Made by a program: the position numbers and the translations under genes
Shown: one piece after another, positions 1 to 1,860 of the stretch
Layout: every line of letters begins with the position of its first letter
Position numbering within the stretch: position 1 is the stretch's first letter
From: Naegleria gruberi
Lineage: Eukaryota
Length of the DNA: 1,860 nucleotides
Direction: 5' to 3' (one strand)
Assembly: GCA_000004985.1 (NCBI GenBank)
Contig: GG739313.1
Notes under the pieces: generated by a model
Databases searched by the model: none
Seen by the model: only the letters and a program-made list of their open reading frames with translations
What the model was told of the DNA's origin: nothing

Positions 1-99
1 CAATATTTCATGTATCAAGAAAAAGCCTTGATGAAATTTAAGTATCACCATTGTGGTGATGAAGCAAACGGAATAGTAAATTATGAAGTATTGTAGTTA

Positions 100-393
100 T
101 AATCGGATTGATGCTGGTTTATAGTTGTTCCGATGATGTAATACCAACTTGAATTTTTCCAAATAATAAAATAATTTCCAAATCATGATGAAGAATAAAT
201 TCCAAAAATTACTATTATTACTATTATTTAAATCATGATGAGATGATGTGGTGAAATTCTTGGAGGTAATAGATGTGAAATCACTCCAAGAATCAACAGA
301 GTCGTGATGTACCTGATGTTGATCCAATATTTTTGATAAAATATTTCGAAGTTGGTGTTCATAGAGATACCAATTCTTGTCACCACAGACGCT
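100..393 (-). CDS. Hypothetical open frame, a possible exon fragment, in the left flank of the insertion
   Basis: The minus-strand stop-to-stop frame (100-465) is open across the TIR junction. The flank-encoded part reads 'EFVSVCGDKNWYLYEHQLRNILSKILDQHQVHHDSVDSWSDFTSITSKNFTTSSHHDL...'. It is protein-like, but I recognise no domain and the sequence becomes low-complexity and hydrophobic towards its end. Confidence 0.15.
211..228. repeat. Tandem 9-mer (ACTATTATT x2), flanked by a 12-mer direct repeat AAATCATGATGA at 180-191 and 230-241
   Basis: Read directly from the sequence. This is a short simple repeat. Confidence 0.4.
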
Positions 394-401
394 AACAAAC
401 T
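394..401. repeat. Target-site duplication copy 1 (AACAAACT)
   Basis: Identical 8-mer in direct orientation abutting the outer end of each TIR. Confidence 0.6.
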
Positions 402-417
402 CAGGGGGGCGGAAAGT
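402..417. repeat. Left terminal inverted repeat CAGGGGGGCGGAAAGT
   Basis: Exact reverse complement of 1327-1342. It contains a G6 run, which is rare in this AT-rich window. Confidence 0.75.
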
Positions 418-1255
418 GAAGAAAAATGGTGAGAAAGGAAAAAATAAACAAAAAACAACCAGTTTTTAATTTTCTGAACAACCAAAACCAAAGCCATGTT
501 TCAGACCTTGTAAAGTAACTTTCTGATTATTAGCCAGAAATGCTTTAAGAATCAACTTTTTTCGTAACTCCACAAACAGTACAGCAAAAGGGTTTTGCCA
601 TTTTTTGGAAGTTTTTGGTAAATAAAAATGCATAATAATTGTGATTGAGATTAAACATTATTATCTGCCACATCGAAGAAACAATTCCAACCTTTGATAT
701 TTGGAATATATCATTACTACATGAATTATCGCGATTTGACAGAAGGTATTTTTTATTTTTTGCTTCTATCTTAAGAACGAAAGTTAGCCATCACACTCAT
801 TCAATTTCATACCAAAACCAAGCGTACACAGATAGTTCAAAAAATCCTCCAGCCACAACGAAGGAATCTTTTAAAGGTGTCATGTGTTCAATTATTGAAC
901 TTTATGAAATTTAAAAGTAACTGAGAGAAGCTATTTTTTTATTTCATCGTATTTATTTTTTTTAATACTTCCTAAATAGTGCATGTGTTTTTAGCTTAAA
1001 ATTTAATTCTGAAAATATGCTGTTTACGATAAATACTTCACAGAAATGAATAATTCCAAGATGAGAAATATATATATTGGTACTGAAATGTCTTCAAATT
1101 ACTAAAGTTTTGGGAAACATCATCCTCGACCCTGAGAGTATCTATGTGAATAAATTCTAGACACCAAGACGTGAATATGTGAATTAAAATCGATATTGTG
1201 AAACTTCACGTGTTTATAGAACTGTAACAGATTATTGGATGTATAGAGTTGTATA

Positions 1256-1261
1256 TTTATT
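1256..1261 (-). promoter_or_regulatory. Candidate polyadenylation signal (AATAAA on the minus strand) for the Sel1/ZZ gene, located inside the transposon
   Basis: Plus-strand TTTATT at 1256-1261 is AATAAA on the minus strand. It lies about 140 nt downstream of the TAA stop at 1401-1403. No minus-sense AATAAA exists in the 50-nt native flank between the stop and the insertion. Confidence 0.2.
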
Positions 1262-1326
1262 GAAAAAACATATATCGACTTGGAACCACTTTGACAATTC
1301 TCAACATTTTCGCTCGGCTGATACCA

Positions 1327-1342
1327 ACTTTCCGCCCCCCTG
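1327..1342. repeat. Right terminal inverted repeat ACTTTCCGCCCCCCTG
   Basis: Exact reverse complement of 402-417. Confidence 0.75.
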
Positions 1343-1350
1343 AACAAACT
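1343..1350. repeat. Target-site duplication copy 2 (AACAAACT)
   Basis: Identical 8-mer in direct orientation abutting the outer end of each TIR. Confidence 0.6.
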
Positions 1351-1400
1351 TAAAGTTGGGTTCTAATAAAAAACTTACTTTCAATAAACTATAATGTAAC

Positions 1401-1860
1401 TTATTCAAGGAGTTTGATCAATGTTTCCAATTTTGTGTGCTTTGGTTTTTCATTTAACTGCTTTAGCAAAGGAACAAAAAGTTGTAAAGCGTGGTGTTTG
1501 GCAAATTTTGAGTTTCCACATTTGTTGCATTTAGCTCCATTCTCGTAACATCGTTGGCATAAATCAAAATCACATGATAAATTAGCACATTCATAATTAA
1601 ATCCAAAATCTTCCACAAAACATTCATTGCAACAACAGCTTGAATTTACCTTACTGAGAAATCTGTCATCGAATTGAGTACCTAATTTTCCCAAAAATTG
1701 TCTACTTTTTTCCAAATCTAGCTCACAATCATGTAATCCAAAGTAGTGCATAATTCCAAAGAGAATGGTACATGAATGATCTCCTTGATCACACGCCTCT
1801 TTAAGCCAAAACATGGCTCGATCTATATCTTGCTCAACACCTTCCCCTGAAGAAAACATC
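1401..1860 (-). CDS. C-terminal part of a Sel1-repeat / ZZ-type zinc-finger protein; the 5' end continues beyond the window edge, and the TAA stop is at 1401-1403
   Basis: Continuous 152-codon minus-strand frame running to the window edge. The translation has a Sel1-like repeat ('GEGVEQDIDRAMFWLKEACDQGDHSCTILFGIMHYFG') followed by a Cys-rich ZZ signature ('CCCNECFVEDFGFNYECANLSCDFDLCQRCYENGAKCNKC...HH'). Codon usage is non-random and nematode-like (GGA used 7 times for Gly, AGA for Arg). Confidence 0.7.
   Translation of the reverse strand, partial: MFSSGEGVEQDIDRAMFWLKEACDQGDHSCTILFGIMHYFGLHDCELDLEKSRQFLGKLGTQFDDRFLSKVNSSCCCNECFVEDFGFNYECANLSCDFDLCQRCYENGAKCNKCGNSKFAKHHALQLFVPLLKQLNEKPKHTKLETLIKLLE
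1491..1637 (-). other. ZZ-type zinc-finger domain within the CDS
   Basis: Spacing is C-x2-C-x10-C-x4-C-x4-C-x2-C-x6-C-x2-C followed by HH. It contains the ZZ hallmarks 'G-x-R/N-Y-x-C' (GFNYEC) and 'DFDLC..C', as seen in p62/SQSTM1, dystrophin and CBP ZZ domains. Confidence 0.6.
1737..1859 (-). other. Sel1-like (TPR-like) repeat unit within the CDS
   Basis: Matches the Sel1 consensus G.GV..D...A..W...AA.QG...A...LG..Y..G: 'SGEGVEQDIDRAMFWLKEACDQGDHSCTILFGIMHYFG'. Further repeats probably lie beyond the window edge. Confidence 0.55.

What the first reader, a model, noticed from the sequence alone, without database searches (positions are those of the whole stretch)
394..1350. Complete TSD-TIR...TIR-TSD signature of a hAT-like non-autonomous transposon
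Left side: AACAAACT followed by CAGGGGGGCGGAAAGT. Right side: ACTTTCCGCCCCCCTG followed by AACAAACT. A perfect 16-bp inverted repeat bracketed by a perfect 8-bp direct repeat is very unlikely by chance. An 8-bp duplication together with CAGGG termini points to the hAT superfamily. The 941-bp interior has no transposase ORF, so the element would be non-autonomous and mobilised in trans. The perfect TIRs and perfect TSD suggest a relatively recent insertion. The two G6/C6 tracts inside the TIRs are the only GC-rich islands in the window.
Basis: partly seen in the sequence, partly recalled or inferred. Interest (0 to 1): 0.6.

Follow-up and report, generated by a model that had tools for sequence, protein, structure and literature searches.

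The report
Non-autonomous hAT-like transposon in Naegleria
A 941-bp non-coding "jumping gene" of the common hAT type sits just downstream of a gene in the amoeba Naegleria gruberi; it is a clean textbook example, not a new kind of element.

Summary
A perfect 16-nt inverted repeat (402-417 / 1327-1342, CAGGGGGGCGGAAAGT) is abutted by a perfect 8-bp direct repeat (AACAAACT, 394-401 / 1343-1350). The expected chance count in this window is about 1e-7. The window is an entire 1,860-bp scaffold of the eukaryote Naegleria gruberi. The insert lies 50 bp 3' of the stop codon of an F-box/Sel1 gene whose near-identical copy is on a 223-kb scaffold.

The 941-bp insert has host-like GC (31%). It has stops in all six frames, no protein domain, no RNA family, and no similarity to E. 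coli, plasmid or phage DNA.

It meets every hAT structural criterion that one copy can show:
- an 8-bp duplication;
- a short TIR (16 nt);
- a YARNG terminus (CAGGG).

Its end also matches the 11-bp TIR of the active plant hAT element Tip100 (CAGGGGCGGAG) at 10 of 11 positions, if the G-run is two bases longer.

No searchable collection holds Naegleria DNA. Copy number, an empty site and an autonomous partner therefore could not be tested. The "recent insertion" claim is only weakly supported.

Verdict: an ordinary non-autonomous hAT-like class II transposon. It is a new (or possibly already catalogued) member of a known kind and of low interest.

The parts
394..401 (.). Left copy of the 8-bp target-site duplication, AACAAACT
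   Evidence: It abuts the left TIR exactly. The word occurs only here and at 1343-1350.
402..417 (+). Left terminal inverted repeat, CAGGGGGGCGGAAAGT (16 nt). It starts with the hAT-type YARNG motif (CAGGG).
   Evidence: It matches the Tip100 TIR CAGGGGCGGAG at 10/11 with a G-run 2 nt longer.
418..1326 (.). Non-coding interior of the element (909 bp, AT-rich)
   Evidence: Stops in all six frames. No Pfam family in any frame at E<=10. No Rfam family at gathering score, no tRNA, no tandem array of note. No protein match to its ORFs among 5.8e9 proteins. The element as a whole (402-1342, TIRs included) has GC 0.312, against 0.303 and 0.333 in the flanks.
1327..1342 (-). Right terminal inverted repeat, ACTTTCCGCCCCCCTG: the exact reverse complement of 402-417
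1343..1350 (.). Right copy of the 8-bp target-site duplication, AACAAACT
1401..1859 (-). Context, not part of the element: the 3' part of an F-box/Sel1-repeat gene (NAEGRDRAFT_76978). Its TAA stop is at 1403-1401, 50 bp from the insertion.
   Evidence: ORF; Sel1, E 7e-9; 100% identical to a Naegleria gruberi predicted protein; 152/153 identical to the C-terminus of NAEGRDRAFT_74705 on a 223-kb scaffold; distance.

Best explanation
Bases 402-1342 are a 941-bp non-autonomous class II (cut-and-paste) DNA transposon, most probably of the hAT superfamily, with ends resembling those of the Tip100 branch. It is inserted in the nuclear genome of Naegleria gruberi, 50 bp downstream of the stop codon of an F-box/Sel1 gene.

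Mechanism (inferred from established hAT biochemistry, e.g. Hermes; not shown here):
1. A hAT transposase encoded elsewhere in the genome binds the 16-bp terminal inverted repeats and adjacent sequence.
2. It excises the element.
3. It joins the element's 3'-OH ends to target DNA with an 8-bp stagger.
4. Gap repair then produces the AACAAACT duplication seen on both sides.

The element encodes nothing, so it depends wholly on a transposase supplied in trans.

Shown here: the TSD-TIR...TIR-TSD anatomy, its statistical significance, the lack of coding capacity, the eukaryotic host, and the exclusion of artefacts.

Inferred: the superfamily, mobilisation in trans, and that the insertion may be specific to one haplotype.
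For: - Exact 16-nt TIR plus exact abutting 8-bp direct repeat. Chance expectation is 1.3e-7, and 0/300 shuffles give a 16-nt inverted repeat.
- The hAT diagnostics are met: an 8-bp TSD and a YARNG end (PMC3014272), and a TIR within the 10-25 bp range (PMC3942097; PMC8961557).
- The terminus CAGGGG[GG]CGGA resembles the 11-bp TIR CAGGGGCGGAG of Tip100, an autonomous hAT shown to make 8-bp duplications (PMC12511174; alignment).
- No coding capacity in any frame.
- GC content equals that of the flanks.
- The host is a eukaryote in which DNA transposons are reported but mostly unclassified (PMC12344493).
- No similarity to plasmids, E. coli genomes or phages.
- The window is a tiny separate scaffold whose gene is 152/153 identical to one on a 223-kb scaffold. 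This fits an insertion that kept two haplotypes from merging.
Against: - Only one copy is available. No second copy, empty site or matching transposase could be examined.
- The duplication AACAAACT does not fit the Ac-type target preference nTnnnnAn (PMC10368747), nor, from my own knowledge of Arensburger et al. 2011, the Buster-type nnnTAnnn.
- No enrichment of short subterminal repeats was detectable (best p = 0.03 over 27 tests).
- A 17-nt TIR with a 6-bp TSD is an equally exact parse.
- Other superfamilies also make 8-bp duplications, e.g. Zisupton (PMC12730594).
- The resemblance to the Tip100 TIR covers only about 10 nt and could be convergent.
Confidence: 0.7

Rival explanations
1. It is a genuine TIR transposon, but of a different superfamily that makes 8-bp duplications (Zisupton/KDZ, P, Merlin, short-TSD Mutator-like) or, under the alternative parse, 6-bp duplications (hAT6, IS3EU, Dada).
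For: - Zisupton also generates 8-bp TSDs (PMC12730594).
- The TSD fits neither hAT target consensus.
- No subterminal repeats were detected.
- The 17-nt TIR / 6-bp TSD parse is exact.
- Superfamily assignment without a transposase is always provisional.
Against: - The terminus fits the hAT YARNG motif and closely resembles the TIR of an active hAT, Tip100.
- From my own knowledge (not tested here): P elements end in CATG with 31-bp TIRs, Merlin ends start with GG, and Mutator-like elements usually have long TIRs and 9-11-bp TSDs.
- The 6-bp parse gives a TCAGG end that matches no motif I know.
Confidence: 0.2
2. It is not mobile DNA. The inverted repeat and the flanking direct repeat are a chance or structural palindrome, for example a recombination or replication by-product.
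For: Only a single copy has been seen. Nothing related was found in any searchable collection, although those collections contain no Naegleria DNA.
Against: The joint chance expectation is about 1e-7. The two GC-rich 16-mers are unique islands in 31%-GC DNA. The direct repeats abut the inverted repeats exactly, as transposition predicts.
Confidence: 0.04
3. It is an artefact: a bacterial insertion sequence that jumped into a clone during library propagation in E. coli, vector sequence, or a chimeric assembly of a very small scaffold.
For: - The scaffold is only 1,860 bp.
- The first 12 nt of the TIR coincide with a stretch of the pMB1/ColE1 origin, GTCAGGGGGGCGGAGCC. The 11-mer CAGGGGGGCGG turned up in papers about plasmids and vectors; that the shared stretch is the origin is from my own knowledge of its sequence.
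Against: - blastn at word size 11 finds no match of 394-1350 in 5,426 complete E. coli genomes, 72,556 plasmids or 50,697 phages.
- The insert has 31% GC, like its Naegleria flanks, and has no ORF, whereas bacterial ISs encode a transposase.
- Common E. coli ISs give 9-, 5-, 4- or 3-bp duplications (my own knowledge).
Confidence: 0.02

Closest known systems
Tip100 (Ipomoea purpurea) and the Tip family of hAT transposons
   Same: 8-bp target duplication. Short TIR that begins CAGGGG and continues CGGA. Tip100's TIR is CAGGGGCGGAG, against CAGGGGGGCGGAAAGT here: 10 of 11 positions match if the G-run is 2 nt longer.
   Different: - Tip100 is 3.8 kb and encodes an 808-aa transposase; this element is 941 bp and encodes nothing.
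- The TIR here is 16 nt, not 11.
- The host is a heterolobosean protist, not a plant.
- Family membership is defined by transposase phylogeny (PMC3942097), which cannot be assessed here.
Ds-type and other internally deleted non-autonomous hAT elements, and hAT-derived MITEs (e.g. BuT2 MITEs, mar)
   Same: They keep only the ends needed for transposition, have no transposase gene, show 8-bp TSDs, and rely on a transposase supplied in trans (PMC3942097).
   Different: - No autonomous parent is known for this element, so derivation by internal deletion is not shown.
- At 941 bp it is longer than typical MITEs.
- Copy number is unknown.
Hermes (Musca domestica hAT)
   Same: Similar anatomy: a 17-bp TIR beginning CAG and 8-bp TSDs. 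Its transpososome structure provides the mechanistic model (PMC10368747).
   Different: - Hermes prefers nTnnnnAn targets; AACAAACT does not fit.
- Hermes has clustered AAGT/AAGC subterminal repeats. Here AAGT lies inside the TIR, but no subterminal clustering is detectable.
Zisupton / KDZ transposons
   Same: 8-bp target duplications (PMC12730594).
   Different: No evidence here for Zisupton-type ends or transposase. The YARNG end and the Tip100-like TIR point to hAT instead.

Membership tests
hAT superfamily | 8-bp target-site duplication | tested here: met
   AACAAACT abuts both TIRs exactly. Caveat: a 6-bp TSD with a 17-nt TIR is an alternative exact parse. Criterion from PMC3014272 and PMC3942097.
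hAT superfamily | Short terminal inverted repeats (10-25 bp) | tested here: met
   16-nt perfect TIR that does not extend inward. Range from PMC3942097 and PMC8961557.
hAT superfamily | Terminal motif YARNG | tested here: met
   The end reads CAGGG (Y=C, A, R=G, N=G, G). Motif from PMC3014272.
hAT superfamily | hAT transposase (BED finger, RNase-H-like DDE domain, hATC dimerisation domain) encoded by the element itself | tested here: not met
   Stops in all six frames and 0 Pfam families at E<=10. This is expected for a non-autonomous member and does not exclude membership.
hAT superfamily | An autonomous partner in the same genome with the same ends that encodes a hAT transposase | not testable with these tools
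   No Naegleria genome DNA is in any collection. The look-up of encoding contigs has no record for either Naegleria protein.
hAT superfamily | Target preference nTnnnnAn (Ac family) or nnnTAnnn (Buster family) | tested here: not met
   AACAAACT has A at position 2 and C at position 7, and AA at positions 4-5. This is a statistical preference judged on one site, and the preference of the Tip family has not been studied (PMC10368747; PMC3942097). The Buster consensus is from my own knowledge.
hAT superfamily | Short subterminal repeats (transposase-binding motifs) clustered near both ends | tested here: inconclusive
   No 4-6-mer is significantly enriched in the terminal 200 bp against the middle (best p = 0.03 over 27 tests). 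One copy gives little power.
Transposable element (any family) | Several copies in the genome, each with its own flanking duplication, and/or an empty site in an allele or relative | not testable with these tools
   The predicted empty-site 29-mer is absent from metagenome contigs. All 242 loci fetched with the TIR 16-mer are chance hits: single matches, median GC 0.60, no partner. None of these collections contains Naegleria.
Tip (Tip100) family of hAT | Transposase groups with Tip100, BuT2 and hAT-4_BM in phylogeny | not testable with these tools
   There is no transposase. Only the TIR resemblance is available (10/11 with a 2-nt longer G-run), which is a lead and not a membership test.
MITE | Small size (typically under about 800 bp) and high copy number | tested here: not met
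   The element is 941 bp and its copy number is unknown. It is better described as a non-autonomous element than as a MITE. The size criterion is from my own knowledge.
Bacterial IS or vector contamination | Sequence similarity to E. coli chromosomal or plasmid DNA or to cloning vectors | tested here: not met
   No blastn match at E<=0.01 in E. coli genomes, plasmids or phages. The 28-mer of TIR plus 12 adjacent bases is absent from 185,579 prokaryotic genomes.

The most novel reading that the evidence does not exclude
The insertion is present in only one haplotype of the sequenced NEG-M strain, which is why this 1.86-kb piece stayed separate from the 223-kb scaffold that carries the near-identical gene. 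It would then record recent, possibly ongoing, hAT transposition in a heterolobosean. The Tip100-like termini would reflect either deep conservation of end recognition in the Tip branch across eukaryotic supergroups or a horizontal transfer into Naegleria.
Probability: 0.25. Interest if true: 0.4.

Novelty: new member of a known kind. Interest (0 to 1): 0.2.

Why it matters
Mostly it matters for annotation. Naegleria gruberi repeats are largely unclassified (PMC12344493), and this is a cleanly delimited non-autonomous DNA transposon with well-defined ends. Those ends could seed a genome-wide search for its family and for the transposase that moves it.

If the insertion proves to be specific to one haplotype, it would be a marker of recent transposon activity and of heterozygosity in the sequenced strain. 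It lies 50 bp from a stop codon, so it could affect 3'-end formation of the F-box/Sel1 gene.

It opens no new mechanistic question.

Tried and rejected
1. Other copies. The TIR 16-mer was scanned in viral, metagenome and prokaryote-genome collections. The 242 loci fetched are all single, GC-rich chance hits with no extension and no inverted partner.
2. Empty site. The predicted 29-mer gave 0 hits in metagenomes.
3. The allelic locus. P0002 (NAEGRDRAFT_74705) was identified, but neither it nor P0001 is in the gene-position index, so no DNA could be retrieved.
4. Annotated proteins overlapping other copies or the left flank. A chimeric query of the left-flank frames plus the element's ORFs gave no hit at E<=10.
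5. Decayed transposase. Six-frame Pfam scan found nothing.
6. RNA genes. Rfam gave only three sub-threshold chance hits, and there is no tRNA.
7. Vector or cloning-host IS. Rejected. The 11-mer found in papers about plasmids and vectors is, from my knowledge of the sequence, part of the ColE1 origin and shares only 12 nt with the TIR.
8. Subterminal repeats. None significant.
9. Literature on Naegleria hAT elements. Nothing specific was found; only Kolobok is mentioned for Naegleria. The Naegleria genome paper, Arensburger 2011, Rubin 2001 and Yuan & Wessler 2011 are not held.
10. I ran no further search on a generic hAT query. Results cannot be filtered by organism, so it could not show whether Naegleria has a hAT transposase.

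Full report
**1. Observation**

The window reads ...GCT AACAAACT | CAGGGGGGCGGAAAGT ... ACTTTCCGCCCCCCTG | AACAAACT TAAAG...

The repeat finder reports the inverted repeat as 17 nt (401-417 / 1327-1343), because the last base of the left duplication (T) and the first base of the right one (A) are complementary. Inward of the 16 nt the two ends are unrelated.

The structure is far beyond chance:
- None of 300 dinucleotide-preserving shuffles contained any 16-nt inverted repeat.
- About 0.003 such pairs are expected in 1,860 bases of this composition, and about 1.3e-7 once identical 8-bp flanks are also required.
- AACAAACT occurs nowhere else in the window.
- The G6 and C6 runs are the only G/C homopolymers of 5 or more, and the most GC-rich 16-mers all sit on the two TIRs.

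Shifting both boundaries outward by one base gives a 17-nt TIR with a 6-bp duplication (ACAAAC), and this parse is equally exact. Only further copies could settle it. The 8-bp parse is preferred because it maximises the direct repeat and gives a canonical terminus.

**2. Source and surroundings**

The minus-strand ORF at 1404-1859 carries a Sel1 repeat (E 7e-9). It is 100% identical to a Naegleria gruberi predicted protein (NAEGRDRAFT_76978) recorded on a contig of exactly 1,860 bp. The window is therefore a whole small scaffold of this heterolobosean amoeboflagellate.

That protein is 152/153 identical, with one missing Asn, to residues 401-553 of an F-box/Sel1 protein (NAEGRDRAFT_74705). The latter lies on a 223-kb scaffold and ends at the same stop codon. 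The window is thus an unmerged second haplotype or a very recent duplicate of that locus.

The stop codon is at 1403-1401, 50 bp from the right duplication. No reading frame of the left flank (1-393) matches any protein among 5.8 billion. The insertion therefore lies in unannotated, probably intergenic or 3'-UTR, sequence.

**3. The insert itself**

The 941 bp between the duplications have the following properties:
- GC is 0.312, indistinguishable from the flanks at 0.303 and 0.333.
- All six frames are full of stop codons.
- The longest ORFs and all six masked frames hit no Pfam family, even at E<=10.
- The ORFs have no homologue in the protein database.
- There is no Rfam family at gathering score, no tRNA and no notable tandem repeat.

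The element encodes nothing recognisable. It cannot be autonomous.

**4. Artefacts excluded**

The scaffold is tiny and came from a clone-based assembly, so I tested for a cloning-host insertion sequence or vector.
- The insert with its duplications has no blastn match (word 11, E<=0.01) in 5,426 complete E. coli genomes, 72,556 plasmids or 50,697 phage records.
- The TIR plus 12 adjacent bases is absent from 185,579 prokaryotic genomes.
- A literature search for the first 11 nt of the TIR returned papers about plasmids and vectors. From my knowledge of the sequence, the pMB1/ColE1 origin contains GTCAGGGGGGCGGAGCC. The identity ends after 12 nt and nothing else matches, so this is a coincidence.

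**5. Relatives elsewhere**

The TIR 16-mer was scanned in three collections.
- Viral contigs gave 2 loci, both the same GC-rich phage gene.

All 242 loci carry one match only. The median local GC is 0.60, none extends meaningfully beyond the seed, and none has a convincing inverted partner. This is what chance predicts for a 16-mer in hundreds of gigabases.

The predicted empty site was not found in metagenomes. Neither Naegleria protein is in the gene-position index, so the 223-kb scaffold could not be read.

This is because no searchable collection contains Naegleria DNA, not because they failed.

**6. Classification**

The structural hallmarks of hAT elements are 8-bp duplications and YARNG termini (PMC3014272), with TIRs of 10-25 bp (PMC3942097; PMC8961557). 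This element meets all three: 8 bp, CAGGG, and 16 nt.

I recalled that some plant hAT elements end in CAGGGGCGGAG, and checked this in the literature. Tip100 of Ipomoea purpurea has 11-bp TIRs CAGGGGCGGAG and makes 8-bp duplications. It is an autonomous hAT element that transposes in tobacco and medaka (PMC12511174). The Naegleria terminus CAGGGG-GG-CGGA-AAGT matches it at 10 of 11 positions if the G-run is two bases longer. This is a resemblance over about 10 nt, not proof of homology, but it points the same way as the other criteria.

Points against or neutral:
- AACAAACT does not fit the nTnnnnAn preference of Hermes/Ac-type elements (PMC10368747), nor the Buster-type nnnTAnnn (my own knowledge). 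These are statistical preferences, and the preference of the Tip branch has not been studied (PMC3942097).
- No short motif is significantly concentrated in the subterminal 200 bp. A single copy has little power for this test.
- Other superfamilies also make 8-bp duplications, e.g. Zisupton (PMC12730594).
- Kolobok is recorded in Naegleria but makes TTAA duplications (PMC9587614), so it is not a candidate.

**7. Mechanism**

Shown: the TSD-TIR...TIR-TSD anatomy of a cut-and-paste insertion, and the absence of coding capacity.

Inferred from established hAT biochemistry (the Hermes model, PMC10368747): a transposase supplied in trans binds the TIRs and adjacent sequence, excises the element, and integrates it across an 8-bp staggered cut. 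Repair of that cut yields the duplicated AACAAACT.

The claim of a "relatively recent" insertion is weak. The 24 matched sites (16 TIR pairs and 8 TSD pairs) only bound pairwise divergence below about 12% at 95% confidence. The host-like base composition argues against a very recent arrival from a compositionally different genome.

There is an indirect hint of recency. The piece remained a separate 1.86-kb scaffold although its gene is virtually identical to one in a large scaffold. This would be explained if the 949 extra bases exist in one haplotype only. That is inference and is untested.

**8. Verdict**

This is an ordinary non-autonomous, hAT-like class II transposon of Naegleria gruberi with Tip100-like ends.
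- It is a TIR transposon: about 0.9.
- It belongs to hAT: about 0.7.
- Another superfamily: about 0.2.
- Chance palindrome or artefact: about 0.05 together.

Novelty: a new member of a known kind. It may already be in Repbase/Dfam, which I could not check. Interest is low (0.2). It would be somewhat higher if the insertion proves haplotype-specific and documents current hAT activity in a heterolobosean.

Noticed in passing
window 1-1860 (whole); gene at 1401-1859, minus strand: The window is an entire 1,860-bp Naegleria gruberi scaffold. Its truncated gene model (NAEGRDRAFT_76978) differs from residues 401-553 of NAEGRDRAFT_74705, on a 223-kb scaffold, only by one missing Asn. It therefore looks like an unmerged second haplotype or a very recent duplicate.
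   Followed up: partly
window ~1500-1640, minus strand: The Cys-rich C-terminal part of the F-box/Sel1 protein (CCCNEC...CDFDLCQRC...CNKC) gives a weak ZZ-type zinc-finger hit (E 0.36, below threshold). F-box + Sel1 + ZZ-like would be an unusual domain combination.
   Followed up: no
window 402-413 and 1331-1342: The first 11 nt of the TIR (CAGGGGGGCGG) turned up in papers about plasmids and vectors. From my knowledge of the sequence, the pMB1/ColE1 replication origin contains GTCAGGGGGGCGGAGCC, which shares 12 nt (CAGGGGGGCGGA) with the TIR. This is a coincidence, with no other similarity to plasmids, but it could trip naive vector screens.
   Followed up: yes
window 180-241: A perfect 12-nt direct repeat, AAATCATGATGA, lies at 180-191 and 230-241. 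It brackets a 9-nt tandem repeat, ATTACTATT x2.3, at 208-228. This looks like a small local duplication in the AT-rich left flank.
   Followed up: no
window 1-393: No reading frame of the left flank matches any protein in the 5.8-billion-protein collection. This holds even for the frame that is open to the scaffold end on the + strand (1-93, ending in a stop at 94-96). The neighbour of the F-box/Sel1 gene on this side is unannotated or non-coding.
   Followed up: partly
window 401 and 1343: T401 and A1343 are complementary, so the junctions can also be read as a 17-nt TIR with a 6-bp duplication, ACAAAC. Only additional copies can resolve this ambiguity.
   Followed up: partly
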